Below the pieces are notes generated by a model. That model was not told where the DNA came from, did not search any database, and saw only the letters and a list, made by a program, of their open reading frames with translations. Shown here piece after piece: positions 1,541-60,400 of a DNA stretch of 64,000 nt. The stretch is from a virus. Every line of letters starts with the position of its first letter. Position 1 is the stretch's first letter. Location of the stretch: positions 1 through 64,000 of the IMG/VR virus record IMGVR_UViG_3300033145_001156, one strand, 5' to 3'. The translations under genes were made by a program, and so were the position numbers.

Positions 1541-2744
1541 CGTCGTCATCTTGACGTTGTTCTTGCTGGGCACGAGGGCGCTGGCCGACAAGAAGGGCGT
1601 CGCCGGGCCTGGCGGCTGCCCGGACGTGCCGCCGCTGCCAGCATTCTACCACGAGCTGGGGGTGAGCTGGGCCTACTCGTGGGCGTGCTGCGACTGGCAC
1701 ACGGGGGTCGAATACGTGCCCATGGTGCGCAGCATCCACGGTTACAGCGCGGACGACCTGATCCGGATGGTGCTGCGGCATGGCAGCGGGTCATACTGGC
1801 TGATAGGCAACGAGCCGGACAACGGGGGGCAGGACGACCTGACCCCGTCCCAGGCCGCCGAGGCGTACGGCGAGATCGCCCAGAACATCCTGCTGGTGGA
1901 CCCGAACGCCAGGCTCATCATGCTGGGACTCCAGAGCGGGAGCTGGGACGGGCGGGAGTACCTGCGGAACTTCCGGGCGGAGTGGATGGAGCGCTGGGGC
2001 TTCGGCGTGGACGACGTCGTGGCTGGCTGGCACGTGCACGCCTACGCCCACCCCTGGGGGGGCCAGACCCAGGACGAGGCCATCGCGCGCGTCAAGACGT
2101 ACGTCCAGGCGTTCCGCATAGAGATCGACAGGGAGAGCTCCGGCGCCGAGCTGTGGGTGACCGAGTACGGCACGCTGTACGGGCCCTACGCGAACACGCT
2201 GCATGTCATGGAGGTCATGACGGAGTGGCTGGAGGGTTACCCGGGGGTGCAGCGGTACGCGTGGTTCTACTTCGGCCACCCCAGCTGCGAGTGGGACGGG
2301 ACGGCGCTGTACACCTGCGCATCCGAGATGTCCTCGCTGGGGAGGTTGTACGCGTCCCTCGCTCCCGGTGCCACTCCGGCAGTCACCCTGTCTCCCAGCA
2401 CGACCCCCGTGCCGAGCCGAACGCCGCCCCCGACATGCACCCCATCCGCGACGATGATTCCCACCCAGACTCCTACCCAGACTCCTACCCTGATCCCCAC
2501 CTCCACACCTGTTCCCAGCTCGACCCCGACTCCCACCCAGACCCCCGCTCTCACGCGAGTCCCCGTCTTCATAGAGCCCCGGCTGGACATGACCGTGTCC
2601 CCTGACCCCGTCGAGCGCGACATGCAGAAGACCCAGGTCTTCATCACGCTGGTGAACCACGTCCGGACCCTGGTCATCGGCGTCCTCCTGGTCGCCGGGC
2701 TGGTGAACGGGATCGACCTCGCCGTCAGGTGGAAGAAGTCCTAG
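1527..2744 (+). CDS. Secreted, membrane-anchored glycoside hydrolase (GH-A clan, GH128-like) with Pro/Thr linker
   Basis: Signal peptide; WAYSW, IGNEPD (acid/base), WHVHAY, LWVTEYG (nucleophile), RYAWF; PT repeats; C-terminal TM helix. Confidence 0.8.
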   Translation: MKKISVVILTLFLLGTRALADKKGVAGPGGCPDVPPLPAFYHELGVSWAYSWACCDWHTGVEYVPMVRSIHGYSADDLIRMVLRHGSGSYWLIGNEPDNGGQDDLTPSQAAEAYGEIAQNILLVDPNARLIMLGLQSGSWDGREYLRNFRAEWMERWGFGVDDVVAGWHVHAYAHPWGGQTQDEAIARVKTYVQAFRIEIDRESSGAELWVTEYGTLYGPYANTLHVMEVMTEWLEGYPGVQRYAWFYFGHPSCEWDGTALYTCASEMSSLGRLYASLAPGATPAVTLSPSTTPVPSRTPPPTCTPSATMIPTQTPTQTPTLIPTSTPVPSSTPTPTQTPALTRVPVFIEPRLDMTVSPDPVERDMQKTQVFITLVNHVRTLVIGVLLVAGLVNGIDLAVRWKKS

Positions 2745-2761
2745 ACTTTGCGCAAAGTCTA
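2742..2761. repeat. Perfect 20-bp palindrome TAGACTTTGCGCAAAGTCTA, first copy of a dispersed motif
   Basis: Seen directly; core CTTTGCGCAAAG recurs exactly 13 times plus 6 variants. Confidence 0.95.
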
Positions 2762-2805
2762 ATCTTAAAATTCTCCGATTTGTTCAAAACTGGTGCTGCA
2801 AACCC

Positions 2806-9047: not shown

Positions 9048-9524
9048 GTGAAAGAGATACCGTTGACACAAGGCAAGGTTGCGCTAGTAGACGATGAAGA
9101 CTTTGAGTGGCTAAGAAAATATCAGTGGGTTGCAAAGGCTGATGGCAGAACGCATTATGCCCATTGTACAATTCGGCAAGATGGTGATGTGAAAATGCTT
9201 CTTATGCATCGTTTAGTCATGAAGGCCCTGGCGAGATTGTATGTGCATCATATCAATACTAATGGGTTAGATAATCGGCATAGCAATCTCAAAGTATGCA
9301 CAAGTAGCCAAAATGCTATGAACCGACGAAAGAGGACTAAATGTAGCTCTAAGTACAAAGGCGTACATTGGAATAAATCTCACAAAAAGTGGTATGCAAT
9401 GATAAGATTACGTGGAAGGGTAGAATGGCTTGGCTCATTTAACTGTGAAGTAGAAGCAGCCAAGGCATATAATCAGGCCGCCAAGAGGCTATTTGGCGAC
9501 TTTGCCAGATTGAATCCTCTATAG
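9048..9524 (+). CDS. HNH homing endonuclease with AP2 DNA-binding domain
   Basis: [44 protein letters not shown]; lower GC than flanks. Confidence 0.92.
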
Positions 9525-12687: not shown

Positions 12688-13362
12688 GACTTTGCGCAAA
12701 GTTTAGCCCAGGCCCGGAGGCCGTCTTGGGGATTGAGGGAGGTGGGTGCCATCGTCGGGATTGCGGGTATGGCTTAACCAAGAAGGTGATGACGCTGGGT
12801 AGTACTCACATGAACACGGGACTGAATGTGAGGAATGGGTGCAAGAGTACCCAGCCAAAAGAGCATGGGCGGTACGGGGAACGTACTTGCGGTTATTAAG
12901 AGTCAAAACGTAACTTATCTTCATTGTTCTAGGGGGGTGGGTTAGCCACCCACCCCCCCAAAAAAGGAGAAGCAACATGTGGAGAGACAAGCGGATATGT
13001 AGACTGTTATGCGTGCTGGGAATCCATGTTCTGCTAGTTGGATTGCCGAATGGGCTATATCATTGTGGGCATTGTTCGACAGTAGTGGTGGCATAGTAAT
13101 TTGAGAAATGGGTGGGCATCATGCAGGCAGTTTATAACGATGGCACGGAAGGCGAACAGCTCACGGCCCGAGGGGCGCAGGAAACTTATCTGACCCTCGC
13201 AGCCCTATTGGCCGACGCGAAAGTAGAAAGCGTGAGAGTTACGCGCCAGCCAAGGCCGGAGACATGGCGTAGGGCTGGCAAGAAGGGGCGCAAGCAGGAA
13301 CGGTACTTCTGAGATACGGGAATGGCCATGACTGGGCGGGTGGGGTTGGCCAGGAAGATGAC

Positions 13363-13496: not shown

Positions 13497-13742
13497 ATGG
13501 TTGGTGGGACGGGGCAACCCATCAATAATCACAAGGAAGACACACACAATGATAAGTTACATAACGACTAATGAAAACGGTTCTCACAGGCCAGTCCTTT
13601 CGCAGAAGGGGCTGCCCAGCCCTAAACATTGTGTGTGTCGGGGGCTGGCCGGTGAGAATCGTTTTTGCATTTGTGGGGACAGGTATGCGCCTGTCCCCTT
13701 CGTGCGTTCTAGGACTTTGCGCAAAGTTTAGGAGGGACCATT

Positions 13743-14291: not shown

Positions 14292-14344
14292 GACAACTGA
14301 AAGAACTGAATAGACTTTGTGCAAAGCGCAAGAAAGGGAGAGAT

Positions 14345-15907
14345 ATGACAGAACCAACATGGCAAATTTCTTTGCCCTCACCAAGAGGCAATAAACGTCT
14401 CATAGAACTACCAGCAACTGGTATGGTTATCAGCCCTCTGAACCCCCGGAGGACGCGCCCAGAAGATGAGATAGATTTACTGGCATCCAGAATCAGGCAG
14501 CATGGTTATGAGATCACCCGCGCTATTTGGGTACACGAGGTGAACGAGCATTACGAAGTTTTCGCCGGAGGCACACGACTTGAGGCGGCCAAGCGCGCAG
14601 GAATGTCGCTGATTCCTTCGATTCTGCATGAAGGATTCAGCGAAGATGAAGTTTGCAAGCTGGCCGAACTTGACAATGAGAACGACGAGTACCACCAGCC
14701 CGTGCCTATCGTGGACGTGTGGCTGTCCTACAAGGCTCTGGCTAACGCGGGTTGGACGCAGCCCCGGATAGCGCGGGCTAAGGGATGCTCACAGTCATTT
14801 GTAAGTCTGCGCTTGGCATTAGCAAAACTACCTGAACCTATCCTAAGACAATTTATTAACAATGAAGAGTTGAAAGAGCGACATGCTCTTGAAATCATCA
14901 AATTATTAACAGTTAATAATCTCACTCCCTGGCTGACCCGCGAACAGGCCATGCTGGAGGTCATCAAGAAGGTGGGGATCGGGACGGCGGCGCAGTTCGC
15001 CAAGAAGGTGAAGACGTACAATACCATCATCGGAGAGGTGCAGACGTTTGCTGACGGCCTGGAGTATCAGCGCCGGCAAGAGTTCCTGGAGGTCCTTGCC
15101 GAAAAGAAGGTGCGGACGGTAGCGGCAGCTAAGAACATAGCGGCCAGGATCACGTATGCCATTGCTGAGGCGGCGCGCAGGGCCGAAGAGGATGCCCTCA
15201 TTGCTGTGCAAGAGGCCGAGCGCGAACGCATCGAGGCGGAACGCAAGGAACGTGAGGCCCAAGAACGGCAACGATGGTTCGATAATAACGTAACCCTGAT
15301 TCACGGCGACTTATTGTCGGTACAGATCGAGGACGAATCGGTGGATATGATATTCACGGATCCCCCGTACAGTGAAGATTCTATTTCACTATACGGCGAT
15401 CTGGCGAAGTTGGGGGCGCGTGTATTGAAACCTGGTGGCAGCCTGATCTGCTATGCGGGCCACTATGCCCTTCCCGAGATATTCTCCTTGATGACGCCAC
15501 ACCTGCGGTTCTGGTGGACGCTGGCCTGTGAGCATGGCGGCAACTCTGCACGACTACCTGGCAAGTGGGTATTCGTGGGGTGGAAACCAATGCTGTGGTT
15601 CGTCAAGGAAGGCCGTCGAGACAAGGAGTACGTGGCCGATATCTTCAAATCTACGCAGCCGGACAAGTCCCTGCATGAATGGCAACAGGATACCTCGGAG
15701 GCGGCCTACTACATTGAGCACCTGACCGGTCAGGGCGATATCGTGTTGGACCCGTTCTGTGGATCGGGCACTACGTTAGTAGCAGCGATCAATCTGGGAA
15801 GATTGATTATCGGCGTTGACCAGGATAGAGAATCGATTGAGACAACCAGGGAGCGACTAGATGAATACTACACCCGACAATCCGGAGCATATCCAACTAG
15901 AGAATGA
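14345..15907 (+). CDS. ParB-like N-terminal domain + HTH + coiled coil fused to N6A/N4C DNA methyltransferase (beta-class motif order)
   Basis: SPLNPRR and FAGGTRLEAAK (ParB/Srx); TQPRIARAKGCSQSFVS (HTH); FTDPPY before LDPFCGSGTT. Confidence 0.88.
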   Translation: MTEPTWQISLPSPRGNKRLIELPATGMVISPLNPRRTRPEDEIDLLASRIRQHGYEITRAIWVHEVNEHYEVFAGGTRLEAAKRAGMSLIPSILHEGFSEDEVCKLAELDNENDEYHQPVPIVDVWLSYKALANAGWTQPRIARAKGCSQSFVSLRLALAKLPEPILRQFINNEELKERHALEIIKLLTVNNLTPWLTREQAMLEVIKKVGIGTAAQFAKKVKTYNTIIGEVQTFADGLEYQRRQEFLEVLAEKKVRTVAAAKNIAARITYAIAEAARRAEEDALIAVQEAERERIEAERKEREAQERQRWFDNNVTLIHGDLLSVQIEDESVDMIFTDPPYSEDSISLYGDLAKLGARVLKPGGSLICYAGHYALPEIFSLMTPHLRFWWTLACEHGGNSARLPGKWVFVGWKPMLWFVKEGRRDKEYVADIFKSTQPDKSLHEWQQDTSEAAYYIEHLTGQGDIVLDPFCGSGTTLVAAINLGRLIIGVDQDRESIETTRERLDEYYTRQSGAYPTRE

Positions 15908-17704: not shown

Positions 17705-17846
17705 ACTTTGCGCAAAATTTAGGAGGTAGTGATGGTGGTGTTGATGTTCAGCGTGGGCGCGGGGTTCTCCGATGAGAAGTTGGCGAGGCTGTTGTCTAGG
17801 AAGGCGGAGGAGTTGGCTGATAGTTTGGCCGGTGCGGTTGAGGACG

Positions 17847-18284
17847 TCATATGCGAGGAGCATGGTTGGGACATGACTGAGGTTCACTGCGAGATGTTGA
17901 AGCAGGTGTGTCAGACTTTGCGCAAAGTTTGACGTCGAACACGATACGTGGGTTATCGCTTCTTACTGCGGGGTGACTGGTGATTCTAAAATGACAGTCG
18001 TCCAGGCCGATGACAGAGGCTAGAATATCAACAGGCAACTTCACCATGTTCGAACTGTCAGGGAGTCGTCCTCGCCTTCGTGGGCAGAACACCCGGACGT
18101 CCACGAACACCTTCTCCGGGACTCCCCGGTAGTCCAGCAGCATGAGCTGGTTCTGGATGAGTAGCCTGAAGTCCCACAGCCAGTCGGTCACGACCTTCTT
18201 CTTCCCGTACCGGGGACTTCCTCGTCGGTAACAAGAGTTGACCGAGAGAGCTGCCAGGTAGGGACACACTACTGTGAATTCCAT
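17847..18284 (-). CDS. rusA: RusA-like Holliday junction resolvase
   Basis: LSVNSCY N-terminal motif; PDSSNMVKLPVDIL...GLDD acidic pattern; minus-strand TTGCGC-17-TATACT upstream. Confidence 0.7.
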   Translation of the reverse strand: MEFTVVCPYLAALSVNSCYRRGSPRYGKKKVVTDWLWDFRLLIQNQLMLLDYRGVPEKVFVDVRVFCPRRRGRLPDSSNMVKLPVDILASVIGLDDCHFRITSHPAVRSDNPRIVFDVKLCAKSDTPASTSRSEPQSCPNHAPRI

Positions 18285-18421
18285 GCCCAGAGTATACCAC
18301 GAACGTCGTTTTGGCGCAAGTTTGTCTGCCAATATGTCGCAACTTTACAATATTATCCGTAAATATATCCCCATAAACGCAAAGTAAAGTAAACTCATCG
18401 TGAAACTCGTGCTAAAAACCC

Positions 18422-22678: not shown

Positions 22679-23798
22679 TAAGTAGAAAGGATGGGGTGAT
22701 GAGGAGCAAGATTCTGGATGAAGTTGTGGCTCACGGGGTCAACTCAGATACAGTGTGCGAGGTCGCGGGGTTGCTGGCGGTGGAGGGTACGGTGGGTGTC
22801 TTTGAGGTTGCGACGGAGATAGGAACTCGGACGGATCAGATGTACCAGCCACATCTGGGGGTAAAGAAGAGACCGACGCAGGAACTGGTCGATTGGGTGG
22901 CCGAGGTTTTGGAAAAGGAGTGGTGATATGAAGGGACAGGAGCTGTGTGACGCACACATCGCGGCAATCAGGCATGCGAGCGGTGACAGGTGTGCCGACA
23001 AAAGTGAGGTGTATCATGACAAGGGCTGGTACTATGTCAAGGTGGCACAGAAGGCCCATGACGGCAGTTGGGGCACGTGGGGAGTAGCTAGTCCTCGTCG
23101 CGCCCAAGACATCATCGCCAGGATAAGGATGTTGCGGGGGAGGGTTAGCTATGAGACGAGAAGGAGCCGCCTAGCCCATGCCCGTGAAGTTGAACTCGCG
23201 CATCACATATCCGTCGAGCGCGTCTGGCGGGAGGTGTCGGACAGCTACGAGGTCAGGATGTCCGTCCCGTCGTCGCTCATCAAGGGGATCCAGGACATGC
23301 GGGACTTCGGGGACACGGTTGATGAGGCTATCAGGGTGGCGGAGGGGATGGAGGGGGAGTGATGCTGAGGGAACGAGCACTAGAAGCGTGGATCGAAGAG
23401 GAGAGGGGCCGGAAGGATGCTCAGGAGCGCACGGACGTCGGGCTGTTCAGGAGGGCCAGGGAGCATTTCTCCAAGGCGTTCGGGGTGGAACCTGAGGTTG
23501 TCAAGCGCACCAGCCACTGGGTCGAGGTGGGGGCCGGGGGCATGGTGTTCTTCTTCAACCCGATGACGAAGACTTACTGGTTGTGGGGCGAGTGCCCGGA
23601 CTGCGGATGGCATTGCTGGTCGTCGCGCGGGTTCCAGACGCTGGGCGAGATGGGGAGGGTGATTGCCGAGTTCAAGCCTGAGGGGCACAAGTGCGGGACC
23701 CCAGAGGATGTGGAGGAGACTGCCGCTGAGACTTTGCGCAAAGCGTGGCGAGCCTTTATGATGGAGGAGTGATGAAGGAGCGAATAAGGAAATGGAAT

Positions 23799-27583: not shown

Positions 27584-28086
27584 GTTGAGGGAGTCCGACA
27601 GGGGCAGGATGGTCATCTACAGATCGCAGGGTGGGGACAAGGTGGAACGGGGTAGGATATCCAGTTGGAACGAGTGCTGGATGTTCGTGGAATATGACGG
27701 CCCCTACCGTGGTGCAGCGATGTACACGGCCCCGACGAGACCGGAAGATCTGGAGTGGCTAGAGGACTTTGTGCAAAGTGAGGAGGGGGAATGACGTGGC
27801 CGAATCCCGAGTTTGAAATGAGTAGTGAAGATTGGCCCGAAGTGTGGTTTGGGCCAGTGAAGAAGGAGGAAGGGGCAATGGAGTTTGAAATCAGGTGCGC
27901 GAGCGGGAAGCTGCCGCCCGAGTCTCCGTGGACGATGAAGAAGAGCAGCAACGGTTACATAATCACTCTTTCGACCTTTGCTGATTTGGCCGAATATGTC
28001 AAGCGGTACGGTGTGGTTATCGTCAGCGAGTGTTGGTGGAATCCAGATGTGGCCATGTTGATCACGCTTTATGATTCGGCGATAGA

Positions 28087-30127: not shown

Positions 30128-30369
30128 GTTTGAGGATTGCTGTCTGCGTGGGGTTGAGGGTCGTTGCTCAGGTGATGATGTTCGCCGGGATCGGCGAGGA
30201 GAAGTCGTCGTTCGTGAGGGGACTGAAGATGTGGTGGGTGACGATGTGGGTGGTATTGACGGTGGTATATTTCGTGTTGTATGCCTTGGGCCTGGGCGGG
30301 GATGATGTGGCCTGGTGGTTGTCTATGGGATACCTGGGATAGGACTTTGCGCAAAGCGCAGGGAGGGGA

Positions 30370-33100: not shown

Positions 33101-33578
33101 CTTGGGGTTCAGCGAATCGATTTTCAGGGGCAGGAAGAAGGTGAAGACGCGGATGGTCGAGCCTGTGCTTGACACCCCGTACAGGCTGGCGCGGTACTGG
33201 CATGACAGCATGTGCGAGGTCGGGGTCGAGCCTCCGTGCGGGCCGGGCGCGATGTGCGCTATGGCGAAGAAGGTTCTCGCGCTGTGGGGGCCGAGGTTGG
33301 CGAAGGCGAAGGTGGATGAGCTGGTCGAGGGGGCGCGCAAGAGAGGTACTTGGGCGTCCCTGAAGCCGTTGCTGAGGGGGAAGTGATGAAGATATTGCGT
33401 CTAGTAGTGATTAGTGGTCTTGTCGGGTTCGTGGTGATGTATTGCAGCATGGCAGTCTTCCCTCGTCCTTGGGGGTTCATTACCGGGACGTTGGGATGCG
33501 TGGCTGGTGGGTATCTCGTTAGTATATGGAGTGATCGCAAGGAGTGACGAGGACTTTGCGCAAAGTTTGGGGGAAGTG

Positions 33579-33869
33579 ATGCTGAGGGCATGGGTATCTG
33601 AGAAGGACAGAGCGGAGATAGGCGACGTCCGGCTGCATCTGCTGGCGTACATCCAGGGGTATGTCGAGGGCCACGGCTATCCCCCGACTGTCAGGGAGAT
33701 CCGTGACGTGTCGGGGTTCGCCTCGACGAACACTGTCCAGTACCACCTGGACAGGTTGGTTGAGATGGGGCTGCTCACGAAGGTTCGCGGGAAGTCGCGG
33801 ACGCTGAGGATCACTGATGAAGCGAGGAAGAGAATTGCGTTCACGTGGGAGGATGATGATGCGAAATGA
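33579..33869 (+). CDS. LexA-type DNA-binding domain protein (no peptidase domain)
   Basis: HGYPPTVREI...GFASTNTVQYHLDRL...GKSRTLRI. Confidence 0.88.
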   Translation: MLRAWVSEKDRAEIGDVRLHLLAYIQGYVEGHGYPPTVREIRDVSGFASTNTVQYHLDRLVEMGLLTKVRGKSRTLRITDEARKRIAFTWEDDDAK

Positions 33870-34970: not shown

Positions 34971-35995
34971 CGTGGGGATAAGTCCAGCAGCATTGATGGC
35001 GTTGTTGAAAGGTGATTTTGAGAATGCGATAGTGGCCTCGACGCCAGGGGGCATTGAGGCTCAGGAGGCGGCAGGGCAGAAGAGCTTCGTGGCTGATACT
35101 ACTTTGCCCATCAAGTGTGATTATTGCACTCGGGAGCAGTTGGAGCAGATGGGGATAGTGTTTGGCGAACCCGTGGATGACTTGTTCGTAGAGGTGCAAT
35201 TACCCGAGGGGCGGAAGAAGGTTGCCACCTCGCATTCGATGCATTCTGATTTGTTGGATGACAGGGGGCGCAAGCGGGCGGGCATCTACTACAAAGCGGC
35301 CTTCTATGATCGCAGAGCAGGTATAAGTTTGGAGCATCGGTTTCATGTCTTTTCGGAACCCGTTGGTGGTTGGTCTGGGTATGACAGGCACACAACGCCA
35401 TTTATTGTGGTGATAAGAGACTGTGGTGAGATTGTGTGGGAGGCAGAGGTAGTTGGCCCCGTAGCTGAGGAGTATTCGGAAGGGGGCGTGTTTGAAAAGA
35501 AGTGGAAGATTGTGGCCAGACATTGGCTGGATGAGTACTATCCTGATTGGGAGAACCCATTAGCACATTGGGATTAGGACTTTGCGCAAAGCGCATGAAA
35601 GGGAGTTGATGATGGAGTCCTTGGAGAAGAGGCAGTTGAGGATTTTGTTCTCAGCGGTTAGAAGGGCTTATGAGATGCTAACGACTGGCGGCGACATAGA
35701 TCGGATCGGGGCAGCAGCAAAGATTCTCCGCGAGGCGAACGAGGCCGTGATGCGGGAGGAAGAGTGGGTAACTCTAGGTGACCTTGAGAGTGGGTCTTTG
35801 TTTACAAAGGTTGACGGTGGATTATATCTCAAGAGAGCTGCCTTTAAAGACTATGCATATCCTTGTGTTGGGGTCGGTGATGGTGTTACGCATTACTTCG
35901 CACCCTCCATCGTAGTCCGTAAAATCCAGGCTCCGACAATAGATTGATTAGAGGAGGAATGATGAACGCGTTCAAGACTGAGGGGATGGTGAATA

Positions 35996-42425: not shown

Positions 42426-42925
42426 TGATCAAGGGAGAGTTCCATAACGTAGACATCAACTTGGGATACGAAAGGCTCGCGAAGGCTATCGTCGTGGGTG
42501 GGCTGCGAGGGTGGAATTACAAGTTCCTCGCCTCCGACTGGTGCTTGGACTTGTGCCTGATGGTGGACTGGGACAGGGACGAGCTGGTGCGGAAGCTGAG
42601 GAAGGTTGAGAAGCGGGAAGGGCCGTGCTGGTGGAAGCTGCGGCGGACATGCGATGACTGTGAGAAGCCGATAGCCGACTGGAACAAGTCTGGATACTGC
42701 AAACTTTGCGCAAAGTCTCACAGGAAGCGTAATGACCATAACTATGGCAGGGCCAGGATGTGTCTGAAGTGTGGTGGGCGAATAACCAATAACGCGAGAT
42801 TATGCAGGACGTGCGAGAACAAGAGGAGGAGAAGTGCTGGACTTGACGGTGGCGGACAGGCAGTTGGCGTTCACGAAAACTGTGTTGGGGAGGATGGAGG
42901 AGTTCGAACACAAGGACATAATTGA
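42422..42925 (+). CDS. Zinc-finger hypothetical protein
   Basis: Several CxxC pairs. Confidence 0.55.
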   Translation: MMIKGEFHNVDINLGYERLAKAIVVGGLRGWNYKFLASDWCLDLCLMVDWDRDELVRKLRKVEKREGPCWWKLRRTCDDCEKPIADWNKSGYCKLCAKSHRKRNDHNYGRARMCLKCGGRITNNARLCRTCENKRRRSAGLDGGGQAVGVHENCVGEDGGVRTQGHN

Positions 42926-43532: not shown

Positions 43533-44610
43533 GACTGGGGCCATATCTTTTGGGATAGAGCGGACGAGGCTGGTTTTCATGGCTGTCTAAGGCCGCTAGG
43601 AACTATTCTCTTTGGAAAGTAGAGAGCTTGGAGAAGTTAGTTAGGTAATAAGTGTTAGTTTACGAGAGCAGCGGGACGTAGAAGGAAGGAGATGAAATAA
43701 TGTTGGAAGTGTTGGAAGTAGAGAGGTTTTTCCAGGTGGTTGGAATGTGCGTTGTGTTTGGTGGGCTGATTTGGGTTTTCGGGTCAGTCGTAGTTGATAT
43801 ATGGAGAGGCAAAGCATGACTCAGAAAGAAAGGACGGCGGACATGGGAGAAGAGGGTGTGAATCGGAAGTCGTTGAGGTTGTATGGTTATGAGGTGGCGA
43901 GAGACTATGGCATGCGGGTTAGATCATCATCTGATGCTGTGTATTTACACTTATGTGACATAGCCAACGACGACAAGCTATACGTGACGCGCATAACGTT
44001 GTTTAGGTTACAAGAGATCATTGCTGACGCGATGCAGCTATTCAAGCAGGCAGACGAGGTAGAAAAAGCACAAATAGCTGAACGAGAAGAGGTGAGTGTG
44101 CTAGAATAGGTTGGTTAGGCGAACTGGTTAATTGGTTGACATTGACGATAAGCATGAATGGACTTTGCGCAAAGCGCAAGAAGGGATTAAACCGTGAGGA
44201 TTGAGACTAGATTTATAAACCAGCTTTTGAATCAAATACAAAAGAGTAGATTCTATGATGGAAGCTATACTTACGTAGACCCTCTCTTATTGGTTCGTCA
44301 CAAGTTGGAATGCCTACGGGATGGCCGAGAGTGTAATCCTCTTAATGATTATGATGCCAGACTGTTGTTGAGGGCCATTAGGACAAATAGGGATCACGTT
44401 ATAGAACATGATCGGTCCGAAGCGATAGAAAAGCTGCTTGACAAGATGTACCAAATTTGTGTTCATGGTGAGTGGGCGCATCCTGGGGGAATCGTTGGCG
44501 ATCCCCGGGCGGAGGGCGCGGGTTGAGCCAGCATAAGTAGTGCATATGGTTCTAATCCGTTTTCTGCGAAGAGACTGGATGGAATACAGAAGAAGTTATT
44601 TGAGTAACCC

Positions 44611-49579: not shown

Positions 49580-51696
49580 ACTGATTGATATAGTCAGGTG
49601 TCACAGGTGCAACAACAGGGCTATCGTGGCGGGACTCTGCGCTGGGTGCGCCAGCAAGGAGATCAAGCGGCTGCGCGAATCACTACGAGGGGCGCAAGAT
49701 AACGTGACGCGCCAGATCGAGGCAGTCAAGGATGCGGAGAGGGAGATCAAGCGCTTGCGGAAGATTGAGGCGGCACTGTTATTGCCTTGGCAAGTGGATG
49801 TTGACCCCAGGAAGGCCGCGATCACCTGGTATCGGAAAATGGCTCTTTATTCTGCCGGCGGCGACGCTCTGAGGGCGCAACGGTTCGCCATGGCCGATGC
49901 GCTGGAGGGGAAACCATGACAGATGCACTTCAATTAGAGCTACTCAATGCGCGCATCAAAACACTGGAAGCCGAAAATGCGTTGCTAGGTGCTCAGCATG
50001 ATGCCTATGAAGATTTCATATGGGCCGTATTAGGTATGTTCAGCGGAAAGAATATGGAGGCTTTCAAGGTATGGGTTGCTAATGTTCTCAAGTCTATTGA
50101 TGCGTTGCCGAATAGCGATAAGATTAGAGAGGCATTGGAGGCGAGATGAGCAAGGGCGGGTGGTTCGTGGCGGCATGCGCACTGGGGGTCTTGGGGTACG
50201 CACTCGTGTCGTGCGGGCTGTGGACGCTGGTGCGTTGACTAGAGCGCCGTTTTGTGGTAGAATTATGGGAGGGAAGGATGAAGCATTTCGTTGATGGGGA
50301 TCAGGTGGCGATCACGCTGGACGACTTTGTGGACTTGCAGCAATCGCCCGCCGTGTTCATTCCCGTGGACAGCGACGACGGGAGGGCCGTGATCGCTGGC
50401 GGGGTGGCGCAGTTGTCTGTGGGGCGGTTGAGCGAGATATTCAACGAATTGAGGACTTTGCGCGAAGCGCAGGAAGGGGATGGAAATGGGCGGGCAGGTC
50501 TTGAAGGTTAGGCGGTACAAGGCGGGGTACGAGGTTCGGACGATACATCATCCAGAAGAAGATTGCGGCGTTCCCGGCGGGATGGAGATGAAGTCCGCCT
50601 TCACGCCGGAAGGGTACTACATCGGCAATTCCAAGGATGCATACCGATTGATAGTCAAGCGGGGCATCAAGCCGGAACCCATGAAGCCGGATCGTCCGGA
50701 GGCTAACGGGGGTTGGGGGCGGACGTGTTCCATCGGGTTCTGTGAGCGCGACCAGAAGTGGTTCGGCTGGTCACACAGGGCTATCTACGGGTTCGGAATT
50801 GGCGCTAAGGTAAAAGAGGGGGACTGTGCTGCGAGTTCGGGATGGACTGACGAGTGGTTGGCAGAGTATCCTGAAGATGACCTTAGCTTACCAGTCGGAT
50901 TTGTCGCTGAGTCATTAGCTGATTGTAAACGAATGGCGATAGCGTTTGCGGAAAGTGTATCCTAGGACTTTGCGCAAAGTCTGGGGGAGCGACGGTCGGG
51001 GTTCGCAGGCATGGGTTCGACATGGAGTGGGCGCACCACAGGCACGGGGTCCGGGTGGGTGATGAGAGGGTGTCGGAGTACGTCGAGGATGTGCTCAGGC
51101 AGGTGAAGAGGAGCGGCAACGGATTCGTGGGGACGGGCGACTTGGCGGTGTACGGGTATCTGGCTGACGAGGCTGATCTGTATGTGCTCGTCATCCTTCA
51201 CGGGGCGGAGAGCTACTGCCTGGAGATGACGGCAGAGGCGGTTCATGCGAGACTCGTGGATTCAATGCCCTGATTGCAAGGGCCTTGGCAAGATTGACGG
51301 GAAGAAGTGTCCGCGCTGCGGGGGGAAGTTCTGCGTGAAGAAAGAGGAGGATTGAATGGAGACGTTCAAGTGCTACGTGTGCAAGGTGGAGGTCGAGGGA
51401 GGATACCACGTGTTCATGGAGGCCCGGAGCGCCAGGGAGAAGGACAGGTTCAGGGACGTGTGCGAGAAGTGCGTGCCGGGGGCGACCGAGTTCGACAGGT
51501 GTCTCAGTCCTGAAACGATAAAACAGATGCATGGGGAGTATGCGTCTGGGATGGGTCCGAGGGAGATCGAGCTGAGGGAGATGTTCCGGGAGGCGATGAA
51601 GATACTCCCTGACAGGGTGAGGCACGGGATCTACGAGGCGTATTGGGAGAAGTGCGAGAGGGTGCTGGGATGACCTTGCAGCAAAGGGAGTGAAGC

Positions 51697-56027: not shown

Positions 56028-57133
56028 GCGCGAGGAGGGGGGATGATGTGGACTGACGTGTACGACAAGTGGGGTACTGGGGAGCATGAGGACGTTCCGT
56101 GCAAGTTTGCGGGGCAGACGATAATGTTGAGCAGGGAGAAATGCGAAGCCGGGCTGGGTGACTTGGTGAAGGAGTACGTTCGCATCCTGCGCACCCCGTG
56201 GTGGCGGAGGACGTTCGGCTGGGGGTTCGCGGAGAAGTTTCTGCGGAAGCGCCTGAACGTCTCCATCCTTGAATGGCATAAGTAGGATTTTGCGTAAAGT
56301 TCAGGAGGAAGCGATGATGTTGCCTGGCAGTTTGGTGGCCGAGATGGTAGATGCGACAATAACAGGAAACATAGTACTATTCTTCCCCCACGAGATACCA
56401 GAACAGTTTCCTGGAGTAACTGGCAAGTTGCTGTGCCATGCACCACCATTGGAAGATGGTGGTCTTAGACATGCTTTCGTGTATCTAGGGCCGGAGCAAG
56501 CGGACGAGGCCGGGTTCTGCCATGTGTGCGGAGAGTTTCAGTTGCCTATTGTTGTTCTTGCGAACTCGTGGTCTGCGTGTGGATATTGTGGCAGTAAGCG
56601 CCTTGTGCGCGAAGTTCAGGGGGTAATGATGAGGGGGATAAAGTCGTATTGGTGGCAGTGCGACGTCTGCAAGAAGACCGCAGAGACGAGACAAGATAAG
56701 TTACCGCTAGGGTGGATGCCTGCCTACGGGATGCACGTGTGTTCTGAGGAATGCAAGCAGAAGATGATCAAGATTCAGTCTGAGGTCTACTGCATCGGTC
56801 CTGGGGAGACCTTGGATTTCGAGACGATGAGCATCATTGACTGGCAGGTAGGTGAGGGTAAGTTGTACCTGACTGTTGATGAGGGGAGAATGGGGTAGAT
56901 GGGTGAGAAGAGGATATGCTACCACCTGTTCCTCGTGCCGACGGCATGGGACCAAAAGAGGCCGGGGCCATGCGAGGTCAACTCTTGCAGGTGCGGGCAG
57001 AACTGGACGTGCCCCGTGTGCGGGTACGGGCAGGGTTCGTGGCCGCACGTGTGTGACATGCCGGACGGGGAGCACGAGAGATTGTTGAAGCGGAGCCTGG
57101 TGGAGAATGCAGACATATGGAGGGCGTTGGCAG

Positions 57134-57418
57134 ATGCGTGACGAGACGTTGTTCCTGGAGTGCGAGTGCCACAGCGACGAGCACGTCCTGAGGTGGAGCC
57201 TGGTTGCCGATCCCAAGTGGCCCGCCTTGTACACCTCGGTGTTCTTGTGCCAGTACAGGAACGTGTTCAAGCGAGTATGGGTTGCCGTCAAGTACGTCCT
57301 TGGGTACAAGTGCAGGTATGGGCATTAGGACTGCTTCGAGTTGAACCCAAAGGACATAGGGCGGATGATAGCCCTGCTGGAGGTATACCGGGAGGCAGTG
57401 CATGGTGGAGAGTCTTGA
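57134..57418 (+). pseudogene. Small Cys-rich gene with an in-frame TAG at 57326-28
   Basis: ...YKCRYGH*DCFELNPKDIGRMIALLEVY...; frame stays open to a stop overlapping the next gene. Confidence 0.55.
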
Positions 57419-60400
57419 GGAGGCTGCCGAGTCGGTGGGGAAGGTCGACTGGGACCAGTTCGTGGCAACCATCTGCGAGAGTCGGGAGCGGGTGATCGAG
57501 GAGTTCTGCTGGTGGGCGGAACATTGCGGGGAAGCGCTCGCAGAAGCTTATGCCTTGTGGGAGGAGTCTTGTGGTAGACCTCCGATGACCAAGAACGAGA
57601 AGAAGCAGGCGTGGTTCAACTACGTGCGTGAAAGGGAGAGGGATGGGCAAGGCGTTCGAGATGAATGACGATGGTTGGTCGTCCCACGGGACATAGCCAT
57701 CAGGCTGGGAAGAGGAGGGTGAGGATGAGTGAGATGCTGCGGTGCGGGGACTGCGCGCTGTTCGAGCGGGGCGGCACGGCTGCCCTTTACAATTGGTGGG
57801 GTGACTGTGAGGTAAGCCCGGATCCCCTCTCGGTGCATGGCTCGGACGAGGCCTGCAAGAAATTCAAGCCGAAGGGGGAACCCGAGCTACTGGCGGAGAA
57901 GGTATACGAATGGGACATAGGTGACTTTAAGATGCACGAGACTGGGGATGTGCAGGAGCTGCCAGTGGAAGACGCGTGTATCAATATCTTTGATTCTGCG
58001 CCTGTGCGGTTAGGAGGATATAAGGCAGTATACATTTATCGATTCCCTTGGCTTGCGTTCAAGCCCAAAGGTTGGCGGCAGTGGGTTGTCTTCCTGTGGG
58101 GGACGGACGTCTGGTTCGGGCGGTGGCCGTTCTGCAAGTGCCTGTTCGCGGCCAACGTCCTGGTCTGGATGCTGGGGTGGGTGATGGGATGAGCAGGGTC
58201 CATCAGGTCAAGTGCGACGGTTGCAGGAAGATACAGGAGGACACGCGGGACAACGCCATGCCAGAGTGGAGGGACCCGGACAGGTGGGACGGCTGGTGGT
58301 CGCTGGACGTGGCAGGAGACGGTCGGGAGCACTACGACTTGTGCTGCCTCAAGTGCCTGAAGGAGTGGGTGGGGAATAGGGTTGAGTACTGGGAGCGATA
58401 CGAAAAGGAGGCTGTTGACTTGAAAGTGGATCAGGGGAGGGCGATGCAGTGAATAACCAGGTGCAAAACTTGTCAGTTCTCAGGAGGGCGGCATGAGGAG
58501 GGTAACTTGGGCTCGTTGGATTGAGCTGTGTACTGATGATTGCGATTTTGAGTGCTATGTAGAAGATAGTCGGCTCTTCGCGATACCAAGAACTGGCAAG
58601 GTGTTTGAGATTCTCATGCCAGGGCACTGGGAGAAGCTGCGCGGCGGCCCATTCATTCGTCACGGGGGCGACCTCAGCTTCCATTGCGCCTGTGGCAAGC
58701 CCGTAGTGTTAGCTGACGAGGCTATCATGGACTGTTCATGCGGACGGCGATATCGGTTGCCACCCGCAGAAGTGGAAGTATGGAGGGAACGATGAAGAAG
58801 CTGGAGGAGAGATTGGAGAGGGAGGATGATGGGTGCGGGGAGTGGAGGCCCCGTTCCGTATTTGCAGCTACCCGATACAGAATAGAAAACGGGGAGGAGG
58901 TGATACTTGGGGACAAGGTACTTCCTGACTGTGAGCTGCCTTCAATGCGGGAGAACTAATAATGATATTTACTACGCCCCGACGTGCGGCTTCCTGACCC
59001 ACAAGTGCGACCACTGCGGGGTGGAGTTCGACATCGAGGCCCAGCTCTGCGAGAGGGAGAGGACGGAACTCAGGCGGCAGCAGGAGGAGCACAGTGCGAT
59101 GATAGAGAGGATGGTGGAGGGTTTTGGACGGAGTGGTGCCGTCATTGACTTGGAGGACTTCACATAAAATGGCGAGGGCTATGAGTTGGCAGAACACCTT
59201 GCGCAAAGCGCAGAGGGGGAGTGACAAGTGATAACGCGGAAATTCTCTTGCGGGAGCGGTTGTTCTTTTTATCATGCGATATACGTTGAAGGCCTGAACA
59301 GGGGCTACATCTGCCTCGCTCAACCCGGAGAAGAACCAGAAGGTTGTCCGATGGTGAGGCCCGTCATTGATGGAGACTATGTGCACATTCATTGCCCATC
59401 ATGCTATGCTTGCGTGCCCATCGTTGAAGGGGGATACGAGGTTTGCGACAAATATGATAAGCCGTTTGGGCGGATGGACCAACAAGTAGATTCCTGCGTG
59501 GGGTGTCCGTTTTATCACCCAAACAAGAAGGCGGGTGGATGGCTTGAGTCGCGGGAAGACTTAATAAAAGAGCTTCACAGGCTTCGTACAGAGTTGCTTC
59601 GTGCAGCGAGGAGGGCAGAGCGGGCAGAGAAAGAGATCAAAGACAAGGCGACGGAAGAGCATGAGGGTTTTATGTAGCCATTAGAGATGGCGTGGAGTTC
59701 AAGTTGGTTAAGTGTGCGAGGTGTCGCAAGTGTGGAAACATCAACGACATGCGGTTAGTCTCGTGTTCTTGGATGCACAAGAAGTGAGACTTTGCGCAAA
59801 GTGAGGAGGTCTAATGTCTGAATGGAACTGGAGTGATGTTCGCGAGCCGATAGAGAAGCTACTGCGGGAGAAGTATGGTGTAGGGTTGGAATCGGTCACG
59901 GTGGTGAGGACTGCCCGCTCGAACTGGCATGCCCACGTTCCGGCAGGTCTTACGTTCGTGCCTACCCGATACCGAAACGTTGACAGGAAGGGTGTGAGGG
60001 CATGGCTGTGGCGCTTCTTCGGGAAGGTGCTTGGGAAGCCCCGCTGGGGGCAAGACAAGGTGATGCTGGAGCCCATGTGTCCTCACGAAGTGGAGGAGAT
60101 CCAGTTGTCGCAATACACCGCTAAAGATCCGTGTGGTGTTGAATACAGATGGTGGATGGGATACGGCCCGGAGTCGAAGGTCCTGGCTATCGGTGATTGG
60201 GAAGGTTCGACTGGCTTTGCGCAAAGCAGGAAGGGGGAAAGAGATGCTGACGATGGAGCATCGGCCCAAGATCGAGAAGGCGTATGAGGATGCGATTGTT
60301 GAAGTCAAGGAAGGGAGAAAATGATGAAGTGGCCGGGGATGGGTGAATATGGTGATGTCAATGAGGGAGAGGGGTCGGTTCACCTTCCGTTCACTCAGGT

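What the first reader, a model, noticed from the sequence alone, without database searches (positions are those of the whole stretch)
2742..60227. Genome-wide palindrome CTTTGCGCAAAG, about 19 copies, mostly at gene junctions
Seen: exact 12-mers start at 2746, 12690, 13715, 17916, 23732, 30345, 33554, 35580, 42704, 44163, 50968, 59790 and 60215. Variants start at 14315, 17706, 27767, 50456, 56288 and 59197. Chance expectation for an exact 12-mer in 64 kb is about 0.004. Most copies sit just after or near a stop codon (often TAGGAC-TTTGCGCAAAG) and shortly before the next RBS. They are not within the strong promoters. Inference: a dedicated protein-binding network (stoperator-like, parS-like or packaging sites) or a gene-cassette exchange site. 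Candidate binders are the LexA-like protein 13 bp after one copy, the RHH protein (4024), the MarR-like protein and two ParB-like proteins. The GCGC core could be methylation-sensitive.
Basis: partly seen in the sequence, partly recalled or inferred. Interest (0 to 1): 0.85.

Follow-up and report, generated by a model that had tools for sequence, protein, structure and literature searches.

The report
Dispersed palindrome before phage gene starts
An uncultivated 105-kb phage carries about two dozen copies of one 12-base palindrome, mostly wedged between a stop codon and the next gene's ribosome-binding site; it is most likely the docking site of an unidentified paired DNA-binding regulator, a kind of repeat already known from other phages whose function has never been shown.

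Summary
The window has 13 exact CTTTGCGCAAAG (0 expected) and the six listed variants. The whole 105,622-bp phage genome has 18 exact copies and 24 within one mismatch.

Fourteen of the 24 are intergenic, although about 86% of the genome is coding. Thirteen have a Shine-Dalgarno plus start codon 10-25 nt downstream (background 16%, p=1.5e-5). None overlaps the roughly 17 consensus sigma70 promoters.

Five metagenome contigs from relatives (72-82% nucleotide identity) keep the exact 12-mer at four orthologous junctions, so the motif is under selection. They also show gains and losses. Some gene-replacement breakpoints abut the motif, but most do not.

Two distant complete phages share this phage's primase, helicase and SSB module. 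Each carries a related dispersed palindrome: CTTTTG-YR-CAAAAG (28 copies, some in promoter spacers) and CYTTAGCGCTAARG (32 copies, before ribosome-binding sites on both strands).

The motif is at chance level in 401 sampled Chloroflexota genomes. Chloroflexota is only a guessed host phylum.

Best reading (about 0.5): operator-like sites for a twofold-symmetric DNA-binding protein. The LexA-HTH-only protein is the best local candidate, but it is absent from the two distant phages. An RNA-level element is the main rival. This scan has met similar dispersed phage palindromes on other DNA. I class it as a new member of a known, unexplained kind.

The parts
2742..2761 (.). Copy 1, extended to a perfect 20-bp palindrome TAGACTTTGCGCAAAGTCTA. 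It sits 1 nt after the stop of the glycosyl-hydrolase gene (1527-2744) and 60 nt upstream of the -35 box of the consensus promoter at 2806 that opens the early region.
12690..12701 (.). Exact copy, TAG-GA-motif, 2 nt after the stop of 12373-12687. Relatives L226 and L227 lack it, and their homology to this genome ends exactly here.
13715..13726 (.). Exact copy after a terminator-like hairpin (13675-13698). The SD and ATG of the 182-aa gene 13743-14291 follow 16 nt downstream. Conserved exactly in L227; decayed to CTTTGCATAAAG in L226.
14315..14326 (.). Variant CTTTGTGCAAAG followed by CGCAAGAAAGGGAG, 18 nt before the ATG of the ParB-N6/N4 methyltransferase fusion gene.
17706..17717 (.). Variant CTTTGCGCAAAA, 1 nt after a stop, with SD and start 11-14 nt downstream (gene 17732-17932).
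17916..17927 (.). Exact copy inside the last 5 codons of gene 17732-17932. Extended dyad CAGACTTTGCGCAAAGTTTG. No start codon follows.
23732..23743 (.). Exact copy near the 3' end of gene 23362-23772, 67 nt upstream of the promoter (23799) of the TnpB gene.
27767..27778 (.). Variant CTTTGTGCAAAG with SD and ATG 12 nt downstream (gene 27791-28090). The copy and this gene are both absent from relative L225.
30345..30356 (.). Exact copy, TAG-GA-motif-CGCAGGGAGG, with a start 13-16 nt downstream. In relative L225 it is kept as an island of homology (L225 1881) while genes on both sides are replaced or deleted.
33554..33565 (.). Exact copy 13 nt before the ATG of the LexA-HTH-only gene.
33579..33869 (+). 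96-aa protein consisting of a LexA-type winged-helix DNA-binding domain only. Best candidate reader within this lineage. It has 7 homologues at 71-83% identity in metagenome contigs.
35580..35591 (.). Exact copy, TAG-GA-motif-CGCATGAAAGGGAG, with a start 14-20 nt downstream. Conserved exactly in L228 (1029), where the upstream 201-aa gene is missing and homology resumes 5 nt before the copy.
42704..42715 (.). Exact copy in the 400-nt gap after the DnaB gene (41121-42425). A weak SD and an ATG lie 17 nt downstream; that ORF was not validated.
44163..44174 (.). Exact copy followed by CGCAAGAAGGG, with a GTG start 19 nt downstream (gene 44194-44526).
50456..50467 (.). Variant CTTTGCGCGAAG 12 nt before the ATG of the Tad6-like gene (exact in relative L224). 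In L224 the gene after the copy is an unrelated 217-aa ORF.
50480..50965 (+). Tad6 (type I Thoeris inhibitor) homologue, flanked on both sides by copies of the palindrome.
   Evidence: PF25188, E=2.7e-54
50968..50979 (.). Exact copy, TAG-GA-motif-TCT, 2 nt after the Tad6 stop. The next start is about 75 nt away.
56288..56299 (.). Two-mismatch variant TTTTGCGTAAAG in the canonical context: TAG-GA before it, SD and ATG 14 nt after it.
59197..59208 (.). Variant CCTTGCGCAAAG followed by CGCAGAGGGGGAG, with a GTG start 19 nt downstream.
59790..59801 (.). Exact copy with SD and ATG 12 nt downstream (gene 59814-60287).
60215..60226 (.). Exact copy inside gene 59814-60287 (codon 133 of 157). It is followed by an SD-like run and an in-frame ATG, possibly a relic leader.
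14345..15907 (+). ParB_N + ParB-HTH + N6/N4 DNA methyltransferase fusion, the second candidate reader. Only its methyltransferase domain has relatives in the two distant motif-bearing phages.

Best explanation
The element is a 14-bp unit, GA-CTTTGCGCAAAG. In about half of the copies it is the head of a roughly 30-nt unit that runs into the Shine-Dalgarno sequence of the next gene.

It is most likely a set of double-stranded DNA docking sites (operators) for one twofold-symmetric, sequence-specific DNA-binding protein, probably phage-encoded. The sites lie inside long host-RNAP-transcribed operons, at the 5' border of about 15 early or middle genes. Most of these have no family match; they include the Tad6 anti-Thoeris gene, the ParB-methyltransferase gene and the LexA-like gene.

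Inferred mechanism: occupancy would co-regulate these cistrons, either by blocking elongating RNA polymerase as a roadblock (as stoperators do) or by occluding the region where the ribosome-binding site is transcribed. As a by-product, the roughly 30-nt repeated unit offers short homology at which genes are occasionally swapped.

Shown: existence, non-random placement, conservation under selection, related motif families in two distant phages, and no enrichment in the candidate-host genomes searched.

Inferred: that the element acts as DNA, that a protein binds it, and what binding does.

Within this lineage the 96-aa LexA-HTH-only protein (33579-33869) is the best candidate reader, at about 0.25. 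An exact copy sits 13 nt before its start codon.
For: 1. Chance is excluded: 13 exact copies in the window and 18 in the genome against 0 expected.

2. The 12-mer is a perfect palindrome including its centre. In an RNA hairpin that centre would be the loop, which has no need to be self-complementary. The 12-mer alone gives only a 4-bp stem, and all stem positions are invariant rather than covarying.

3. Selection: four orthologous junctions in relatives keep the exact 12-mer although flanks are only 72-82% identical.

4. A related motif family occurs in two distant complete phages.
- G001 has 28 copies of TTTG-YR-CAAA against 3 for the control. The central step is always pyrimidine-purine, with CA and TG both common, a set closed under reverse complement. 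Several copies fill the 17-bp spacer of TTGACT/TTTACT...TATAAT promoters in a fixed register.
- G004 has 32 copies of TTAGCGCTAA against 0 for the control. It differs from this phage's core by a symmetric T-to-A plus A-to-T change. Copies lie in front of SD sequences of genes on both strands, and between -10 boxes and SDs.

5. These three are the only phages in IMG/VR found to have a full-length relative of this primase. Three other complete TerL relatives have no dispersed palindrome.

6. The word is not a repeat of any genome searched: the 12-mer occurs 0-2 times in each of 4 Chloroflexota MAGs, and the 14-mer gives single hits in 3 of 401 Chloroflexota genomes.

7. A LexA-type winged-helix protein is encoded 13 nt after a copy and is conserved in the lineage.

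8. Precedents for dispersed phage operators and palindromes exist (PMC4351075, PMC9283540, PMC3203893).
Against: - No binder was identified.
- The LexA-like domain and ParB_N are absent from G001 and G004.
- The only proteins shared by the three motif-bearing phages are TerL, primase, DnaB, a tandem-OB SSB-like protein and an amino-methyltransferase domain. None is an obvious palindrome reader.
- The tight coupling to the SD (13 of 24 here, 12 of 32 in G004) is what an mRNA-level element would show. A DNA roadblock does not require it.
- The flanks are asymmetric. GA on the left occurs in 21-22 of 24 sites, while the right side falls into discrete classes: CGCA(A/G)G, TTT, TCT.
- The CGCAAG class creates a stable 7-8 bp RNA hairpin UUUGCGC-AAA-GCGCAAG of -6 to -10 kcal/mol just 5' of the SD.
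- In this phage no copy overlaps a promoter.
- The phage has no tyrosine integrase and all genes lie on one strand, so a lysogenic silencing role like that of stoperators is unlikely.
Confidence: 0.5

Rival explanations
1. RNA-level element. Transcribed as part of the polycistronic mRNA, the palindrome plus its flank forms a small hairpin directly 5' of the Shine-Dalgarno sequence. It could serve as a translational operator for an RNA-binding protein. Alternatively it could be an intercistronic processing or stability signal: cleavage in the conserved unpaired GA, then a protective 5' hairpin for the downstream cistron.
For: - There is significant coupling to an SD plus start codon 10-25 nt downstream in this phage and in G004, following gene direction on both strands in G004.
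- In relative L224 a copy lies between a -10 box and the SD, in the transcribed leader.
- The right flank falls into classes that each extend a helix: class I GACUUU[GCGC]AAAGUY, and class II UUUGCGC[AAA]GCGCAAG at -6 to -10 kcal/mol.
- Most changes in variant copies fall in loop positions or are G-U compatible.
- Canonical terminators are rare, so long polycistronic RNAs are expected.
- From general knowledge: T7 and SP82 early mRNAs carry repeated, sequence-conserved intercistronic processing hairpins.
Against: - A loop has no reason to be self-complementary.
- There is no covariation among 24 copies, and the 12-mer alone pairs weakly.
- The 17706 variant folds to 0 kcal/mol, yet it sits in the canonical context.
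- G001 copies inside promoter spacers at a fixed register are hard to explain at the RNA level.
- G004's flanking pair prefers T...G or C...A regardless of transcription direction.
- No CsrA or RegA family member was found.
- Nine to eleven of the 24 copies have no SD or start codon after them.
Confidence: 0.25
2. The sites are read by a host protein, such as a global regulator or nucleoid protein of an unknown, possibly Chloroflexota, host. All three phages would exploit it.
For: - Three phages that share very few proteins carry related motifs.
- No shared phage DNA-binding protein was detected.
- The phage relies on host sigma70-type promoters.
Against: - The word is at chance level in 401 sampled Chloroflexota genomes and in the four MAGs nearest by TnpB.
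- The host is unknown, so this test is weak.
- The three phages use three different half-sites, which would need three host orthologues of shifted specificity.
Confidence: 0.1
3. The sites form a ParB/KorB-type network. The ParB_N + HTH + methyltransferase fusion (14345-15907) would load at the palindromes as a CTP-dependent clamp, then silence, organise or methylate the neighbouring DNA.
For: - A ParB_N plus HTH_ParB/KorB domain protein is present, and its gene is preceded by a variant copy 18 nt before the ATG.
- ParB-family proteins bind 14-16-bp palindromes, and KorB uses multiple operators at varied distances from promoters (PMC11790492).
- G004's palindrome resembles the KorB operator half-site TTTAGC (general knowledge).
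- G004's sites are more evenly spaced than random: CV 0.54, p=0.0002.
Against: - ParB_N was not found in G001 or G004. Only the methyltransferase domain is shared.
- No ParA partner or plasmid-prophage features were seen.
- Spacing in this phage is not more even than random.
Confidence: 0.08
4. The primary role is recombination. The repeats would be exchange sites that shuffle promoterless gene cassettes (motif + SD + ORF) between related phages.
For: - Several replacements start or stop at a copy: G000 12690, 13726, 30340, 35575 and 50483.
- Nine or ten of 32 breakpoints lie within 25-30 nt of a copy, against about 12% of junctions that carry one.
- Presence or absence of a copy goes with a different downstream gene at two junctions.
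- Units of up to 27-41 nt are over 92% identical between sites.
- Tad6 is flanked by two copies.
Against: - Most breakpoints (22 of 32) are not at a copy. Insertions also occur at junctions without one, for example L228 and L225 2205-2537.
- Any element at gene starts will coincide with gene-wise mosaic boundaries.
- No site-specific recombinase or Y1 transposase was found.
- Exact conservation of a palindrome is not needed for homology-driven exchange.
Confidence: 0.07

Closest known systems
17-bp dyad-symmetric repeats of Cluster O mycobacteriophages (TGTTCGGNNNCCGAACA; Cresawn et al. 2015, PMC4351075)
   Same: - One short palindrome occurs in tens of copies through a large, apparently non-temperate siphovirus genome.
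- Many copies are intergenic, a minority lie within genes, and they are denser in the non-structural part.
- The copies are not at the SigA-type promoters.
- A dimeric DNA-binding protein was predicted, but the binder and function are unknown.
- ParB-domain, glycosyltransferase and methyltransferase genes are present in both.
   Different: - The sequence and length differ: 12-14 bp without a spacer here.
- Here more than half the copies are tightly start-associated.
- Here some indel ends abut copies, whereas in Cluster O few or none do.
- The host lineage is unrelated.
Start-associated sequences and extended SAS of Cluster K mycobacteriophages (Pope et al. 2011, PMC3203893; still functionally untested in 2025, PMC12699233)
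   Same: - Repeats are confined mainly to the non-structural half.
- They lie a few nucleotides upstream of start codons, often with the upstream stop codon inside or beside the repeat.
- They are absent from host genomes.
- ESAS is an inverted repeat placed just upstream of the SD-bearing repeat, which matches the palindrome-then-SD layout here.
   Different: - SAS itself is asymmetric and contains the SD.
- ESAS arms are 17 bp with a variable spacer.
- Here a single compact perfect palindrome precedes an ordinary SD.
- There is no sequence similarity.
Stoperators and operators of Cluster A mycobacteriophages (L5 gp71-type repressor; PMC9283540, PMC6550527)
   Same: - About 20-35 dispersed copies of one 13-bp-scale site lie in short intergenic gaps inside operons.
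- The known mechanism, a repressor bound as a roadblock to elongation, is the model for the mechanism proposed here.
   Different: - Stoperators are asymmetric, are read by a monomer, and are oriented with transcription.
- They serve prophage silencing in temperate phages.
- This element is palindromic, and the phage shows no integrase or divergent immunity region.
KorB operators (OB) of plasmid RK2 and other multi-site ParB-family systems (PMC11790492)
   Same: - Multiple copies of one palindrome sit at varied distances from promoters on one replicon.
- A ParB-family HTH protein is encoded here.
- G004's TTAGCGCTAA resembles the OB half-site.
   Different: - The ParB domain is missing in two of the three motif-bearing phages.
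- The sites here are at cistron starts rather than upstream of promoters.
- No KorA-like partner was identified.
Intercistronic RNase III processing hairpins of T7 and SP82 early mRNAs (general knowledge, not checked in a paper here)
   Same: Repeated, sequence-conserved hairpin-forming elements lie between cistrons of phage polycistronic early RNAs.
   Different: - Those hairpins are 20 bp or longer with internal loops.
- Here the stems are 4-8 bp, too short for RNase III.

Membership tests
Cluster A-type stoperator | Asymmetric site of about 13 bp read in one orientation | tested here: not met
   The core is a perfect 12-bp palindrome. Only the flanks are asymmetric.
Cluster A-type stoperator | Orientation correlated with the direction of transcription | tested here: inconclusive
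   All genes of this phage are on one strand. In G004, which has genes on both strands, the asymmetric flank pair shows no clear link to gene strand, but the gene calls were crude.
Cluster A-type stoperator | The same site also serves as the operator at the early lytic promoter of a temperate phage with an immunity repressor | tested here: not met
   No copy overlaps any of the ~17 consensus promoters; copy 2746 lies 60 nt upstream of the first early promoter. No tyrosine integrase was found. In G001 some copies do fill promoter spacers.
Cluster O-type dispersed dyad repeat | Short dyad-symmetric repeat in tens of copies, many intergenic, mostly not at promoters | tested here: met
   There are 24 copies within one mismatch, 14 of them intergenic and none in a promoter.
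Cluster O-type dispersed dyad repeat | Sequence TGTTCGG-N3-CCGAACA and membership of that phage cluster | tested here: not met
   The sequence is different, and a 5.7-kb test stretch (window 14285-20000) has no DNA match among 50,697 GenBank phage records.
Cluster K SAS/ESAS | Repeat immediately upstream of start codons, mainly in the non-structural region, and absent from the host | tested here: met
   13 of 24 copies have an SD plus start within 25 nt (p=1.5e-5). 18 of the 24 copies lie in the first 60 kb. The motif is at chance level in the Chloroflexota genomes searched; the host is unknown.
Cluster K SAS/ESAS | Asymmetric 13-mer that contains the SD core (GGGATAGGAGCCC) | tested here: not met
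   The repeat is a palindrome that ends 1-8 nt before an ordinary SD.
parS / KorB operator network | ParB-family protein with an HTH encoded on the same replicon | tested here: inconclusive
   Present in this phage (ParB_N 2.9e-9, HTH_ParB 6.6e-7) but absent from G001 and G004, which carry related palindromes.
parS / KorB operator network | Binding and CTP-dependent loading of the ParB protein at the palindrome | not testable with these tools
   Needs EMSA and CTPase assays.
LexA / SOS box | LexA with a self-cleaving S24 peptidase domain acting on SOS boxes | tested here: not met
   The 96-aa protein has only the DNA-binding domain. From general knowledge, the palindrome matches none of the LexA box consensus sequences I recall.
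REP elements mobilised by RAYT / IS200-IS605 Y1 transposase | Y1 transposase (RAYT or TnpA) in the genome and imperfect palindromes of 20-40 nt with a conserved 5' tetranucleotide | tested here: not met
   No Y1_Tnp (PF01797) was found in G000, G001 or G004. The element is only 12-20 bp. A solo TnpB is present at 23958-25073.
Intrinsic terminator | GC-rich stem followed by a U-tract | tested here: not met
   The stem is 4-8 bp and no T-run follows; an SD follows instead.

The most novel reading that the evidence does not exclude
The three phages that share an unusual DnaG-type primase, DnaB and tandem-OB SSB module form a previously unrecognised group. They would carry one co-evolving operator family, CTT(T/A)G-YR-C(A/T)AAG, read by a small protein of a new family. 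In this phage the operator is fused to the ribosome-binding site as a portable 30-nt leader. That leader would both co-regulate and shuffle accessory and anti-defence gene cassettes such as Tad6. The result would be a combined regulatory and gene-exchange system for promoterless cassettes in a lytic phage.
Probability: 0.15. Interest if true: 0.7.

Novelty: new member of a known kind. Interest (0 to 1): 0.45.

Why it matters
Dispersed short repeats at gene junctions have been described in several phage groups: Cluster A, K and O mycobacteriophages, and several uncultivated phages met in this scan. Only the Cluster A stoperators have a demonstrated mechanism.

This case adds three useful features:
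- Close relatives show both strict conservation and turnover of sites.
- There is a sharp, testable alternative between a DNA operator and an mRNA leader, because the element sits immediately 5' of ribosome-binding sites.

It might also explain comparable repeats elsewhere.

Tried and rejected
Searches for relatives:
- Distant BLASTN of 5.7 kb against GenBank phages found no match.
- The exact 14-mer in IMG/VR gave only single chance hits. The 18-mer gave none.
- Protein-seeded searches in IMG/VR with the major capsid protein, DnaB, primase and the LexA-like protein found no close relative. The one exception is a 4.7-kb capsid fragment without copies.

- Pfam and PHROG scans of about 100 proteins of G000, G001 and G004 found only three DNA-binding candidates: the LexA-like domain, the ParB-HTH fusion and a weak HTH_23 hit.
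- phmmer and blastp between the three motif-bearing genomes, and among the genes that follow copies, found no shared small protein.
- Small ORFs upstream of the primase in G001 and G004 are not similar to each other or to the LexA-like protein.
- The shared 385-aa protein was tested as a possible reader. It has 47 homologue clusters and a confident model (pLDDT 86). Its best, weak, fold matches are multi-OB ssDNA-binding proteins (LEF-3, RPA, PrgE). It is therefore an SSB, not a palindrome reader.

Other checks:
- No CsrA, RegA, tyrosine integrase or Y1 transposase.
- The C5 methyltransferase at 52152-53195 aligns over its full length with M.HhaI, but its best match is another enzyme, so GCGC specificity stays open. 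GCGC is not avoided or enriched beyond 1.1-1.2-fold.
- Rfam has no family at the copies.
- Site spacing in this phage is not more even than random.
- The leader CGCAAGAAAGG without the palindrome occurs only as chance coding matches.

- The look-up of encoding contigs, so the contigs of the 7 LexA-like homologues could not be fetched.
- The look-up of sequencing runs, so there was no transcript evidence.
- Complex prediction, so no dimer test of the LexA-like protein was run.

Full report
**What is there.** A hundred dinucleotide-preserving shuffles gave none. At up to two mismatches there are 23 matches against 2.5 expected, and all six listed variants are real.

The window is the first 64 kb of a complete 105,622-bp IMG/VR virus record with a 114-bp terminal repeat. 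All genes lie on the + strand and GC skew is strong. The whole genome has 18 exact copies and 24 within one mismatch; the reversed control word has none. TerL, portal, protease and major capsid genes identify it as a tailed phage. No tyrosine integrase was found.

**Anatomy.**
- The conserved unit is longer than 12 bp. G and A precede it in 21-22 of 24 copies, and a stop codon often precedes them (TAG-GA in six copies).
- The right flank falls into discrete classes: CGCA(A/G)G, TTT, TCT, TGA.
- By my gene calls the genome is about 86% coding, yet 14 of 24 copies are intergenic. Six or seven more lie in the last few to ~25 codons of a gene.
- Thirteen of 24 have a Shine-Dalgarno sequence and a start codon 10-25 nt downstream, against 15.7% of random positions (p=1.5e-5).
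- There are no copies between 2757 and 12690, the first block of about 30 small early genes. Eighteen of the 24 lie between 12.7 and 60.2 kb (one more, the 20-bp dyad at 2746, is also in the window), and only five lie in the structural half.
- The phage has about 17 near-consensus TTGACA-N17-(TG)TATAAT promoters. None overlaps a copy. Copies 2746 and 23732 lie 60-67 nt upstream of a -35 box.
- Canonical terminators are rare.
- Genes that follow copies are mostly without any family match. The exceptions are a LexA-type winged-helix protein without a peptidase domain (ATG 13 nt after copy 33554), a ParB_N-HTH-N6/N4 methyltransferase fusion (14345), and a Tad6 anti-Thoeris homologue that is flanked by two copies.

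**Close relatives.** GenBank phages hold no DNA match to the 5.7-kb stretch tested, and IMG/VR holds no close relative. One scan of JGI metagenome contigs with a 19-mer (motif plus flank) returned five short contigs, L224-L228. All are true relatives at 72-82% nucleotide identity, and each has two copies.

Four junctions are orthologous and keep the exact 12-mer in the relatives:
- 13715 = L227:930
- 30345 = L225:1881
- 35580 = L228:1029
- 50456 = L224:506

This holds although the surrounding sequence has diverged by a quarter, which argues for purifying selection.

There is also turnover:
- L224 has a copy between a -10 box and the SD of a gene whose G000 orthologue has a short leader without it.
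- L225 has a copy, together with a different downstream gene, at a junction where G000 has neither.
- Copy 12690 is absent from L226 and L227, and homology ends exactly at it.
- L226 has a decayed copy.

In the relatives the common unit is TAGGA-CTTTGCGCAAAG-CGCAAGAAAGGGAG-N5-8-ATG, about 30 nt.

Of 32 internal homology breakpoints, 9-10 lie within 25-30 nt of a copy, while about 12% of gene junctions carry one. That is an enrichment. However, most breakpoints are elsewhere, and any start-associated element will coincide with gene-wise mosaicism.

**Distant relatives.** Among 80 loci with a TerL of 44-56% identity, none has this 12-mer. Two complete phages carry related dispersed palindromes.

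G001 (98,979 bp, 45.6% GC):
- It has 28 copies of TTTG-NN-CAAA against 3 for the control. The consensus is aCTTTTG-YR-CAAAAGt.
- The central step is always pyrimidine-purine: CA, TG, TA, and once CG.
- Several copies fill the 17-bp spacer of TTGACT/TTTACT...TATAAT promoters in a fixed register. Others abut an SD.

G004 (161,983 bp, genes on both strands):
- It has 32 copies of TTAGCGCTAA against 0 for the control, extended to C-Y-TTAGCGCTAA-R-G.
- This differs from the G000 core by a symmetric T-to-A and A-to-T change.
- Twelve of 32 precede an SD and start codon on whichever strand the gene lies (p=1.4e-4).
- Some lie between a -10 box and the SD, or directly after a terminator.
- Their spacing is more even than random: CV 0.54, p=0.0002.

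Three other complete TerL relatives have no dispersed palindrome. The proteins shared by the three motif-bearing genomes, apart from TerL (which the other three also have), are a DnaG-type primase, a DnaB helicase, an amino-methyltransferase domain and a 385-437-aa protein. Of these, the primase, the helicase and the methyltransferase domain had no blastp match in the three genomes without a palindrome; the 385-aa protein was linked to G004 only by phmmer and was not sought in those three genomes with that method. Full-length relatives of this primase in IMG/VR are G001 and G004 only. The 385-aa protein models confidently (pLDDT 86). Its best, weak, fold matches are tandem-OB ssDNA-binding proteins, so it is an SSB rather than a site-specific reader. 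The LexA-like domain and ParB_N occur only in G000.

**Host.** The host is unknown. The solo TnpB at 23958-25073 is nearest (37-43% identity) to proteins of Chloroflexota MAGs. The 12-mer occurs 0-2 times in each of four such MAGs. The 14-mer is found once in each of 3 of 401 sampled Chloroflexota genomes.

Two of these MAGs, G006 and G008 (loci L213 and L215), are unpublished. Only two statements rest on them: part of the TnpB similarity, and the counts of 1 and 2 copies in those two genomes.

**DNA or RNA?**

For DNA:
- The 12-mer is palindromic including its centre, which in an RNA hairpin would be a loop with no reason to be self-complementary.
- There is no covariation among copies.
- The YR centre in G001 forms a set closed under reverse complement.
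- The change between G000 and G004 is symmetric.
- In G001 the site sits in promoter spacers.
- Folding of the core alone is weak. One variant in the canonical context does not fold at all.

For RNA:
- The element is tightly coupled to the SD in G000 and G004.
- One copy sits in a transcribed leader (L224).
- The conserved left GA has no symmetric partner.
- The right-flank classes each extend a helix. In particular the CGCAAG class forms UUUGCGC-AAA-GCGCAAG at -6 to -10 kcal/mol.
- Most variant changes are in loop positions or are G-U compatible.

I weigh these as about 0.5 for a phage-encoded DNA-binding reader. About 0.18 more goes to DNA-level variants (a host factor, or a ParB-type network). 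An RNA-level element gets 0.25, and recombination as the primary role gets about 0.07.

**Mechanism proposed.** A dimeric protein would occupy the sites inside operons at the 5' edge of a subset of early and middle cistrons and co-regulate them. Roadblock is the known precedent (stoperators, PMC9283540). The repeated 30-nt unit would incidentally provide short homology for gene replacement.

The LexA-HTH-only protein is the best candidate in this lineage. It is the only clear winged-helix protein found, it is conserved at 71-83% in seven metagenome homologues, and its gene is preceded by an exact copy. Its absence from G001 and G004 means one of two things: either the three motif families are read by unrelated proteins, or the true reader is an unrecognised small protein.

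**Comparison with known systems.** The nearest descriptions are:
- the 17-bp dyad repeats of Cluster O mycobacteriophages, which have more than 30 copies, are many of them intergenic, belong to non-temperate phages and have an unknown function (PMC4351075);
- the SAS/ESAS repeats of Cluster K, which are start-associated, occur in the non-structural half and are still untested (PMC3203893, PMC12699233).

KorB operators (PMC11790492) and stoperators are working models but not memberships. The defining features that failed are listed in the membership table.

This scan has already followed up several dispersed phage palindromes on other DNA with the same open end. I therefore class this one as a new member of a known, mechanistically unexplained kind.

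**Limits.** Gene calls are my own heuristic. The relatives are short contigs. No binding, transcript or methylation data could be obtained.

Noticed in passing
window 20410-20470 (+): Rfam type II hammerhead ribozyme (RF02276, 39.1 bits against a gathering score of 37, E=2e-4). It lies in a region of small ORFs and repeated non-coding elements.
   Followed up: no
window 23958-25073 (+): Intact 371-aa TnpB (OrfB_IS605 + Cas12f1-like TNB + HTH) in the phage. No Y1 transposase occurs anywhere in the genome. Its own consensus promoter is at 23799. The nearest relatives (37-43% identity) are in Chloroflexota MAGs, which is the only host hint.
   Followed up: partly
window 50480-50965 (+); L224 508-1158: Tad6 (type I Thoeris inhibitor) homologue, E=2.7e-54, flanked by two palindrome copies. 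In the related contig L224 the same slot after the conserved copy holds an unrelated 217-aa ORF.
   Followed up: partly
G004 (record of L192/L255), whole 161,983 bp: 32 copies of TTAGCGCTAA are spaced more evenly than random (CV of gaps 0.54; 1 of 5000 simulations as low). The flanking pair is mostly T...G or C...A, so the 14-mer is intrinsically asymmetric and is used in both orientations.
   Followed up: partly
L200 and L205 (TerL relatives): Five to six copies per 21 kb of TTACC-N5-GGTAA. Its right arm runs into an extended -10 box (TGGTAAGAT / TGGTAAAAT). This looks like a promoter-embedded operator family, different from the one studied here.
   Followed up: no
L179/L180 4566-4811 and 12983: Three copies of CTGAATATTCAG within 250 bp, next to a TTGACA box, plus a fourth copy 8 kb away. 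This looks like a classical clustered operator region.
   Followed up: no
window 13363-13742: Two consensus promoters (13363, 13469) are followed by a ~200-nt leader, a GC-rich hairpin (13675-13698) with a weak T-tail, the palindrome, and then the SD of gene 13743. The layout resembles an attenuator and is conserved in L227.
   Followed up: no
window 9048-9524 and 45578-46369: Two free-standing homing-endonuclease-like genes: HNH + AP2 and LAGLIDADG_3.
   Followed up: no
L224 1170-1584 versus window 51217-51340 and 57140-57407: In this relative, sequences that are 5.8 kb apart in G000 are adjacent. The G000 block between them holds the C5 methyltransferase and the large terminase gene, so that block lies elsewhere in the relative or the contig is rearranged.
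   Followed up: no
window 31943-33100 (+): 385-aa protein with no Pfam or PHROG match and 47 homologue clusters in 1.8 billion representatives. It has a confident model (pLDDT 86), and its weak best fold matches are tandem-OB ssDNA-binding proteins (baculovirus LEF-3, RPA70, PrgE). It is probably the SSB of the primase-helicase module shared with G001 and G004.
   Followed up: yes
window 52152-53195 (+): C5 cytosine methyltransferase that aligns over its full length with M.HhaI (GCGC), E=1.8e-22, but matches another enzyme (8yf3) better. G004 has a homologue and keeps an invariant GCGC core. G001 had no blastp match to this enzyme, and its core has drifted to GYRC. With n=3 this is only a lead.
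   Followed up: partly
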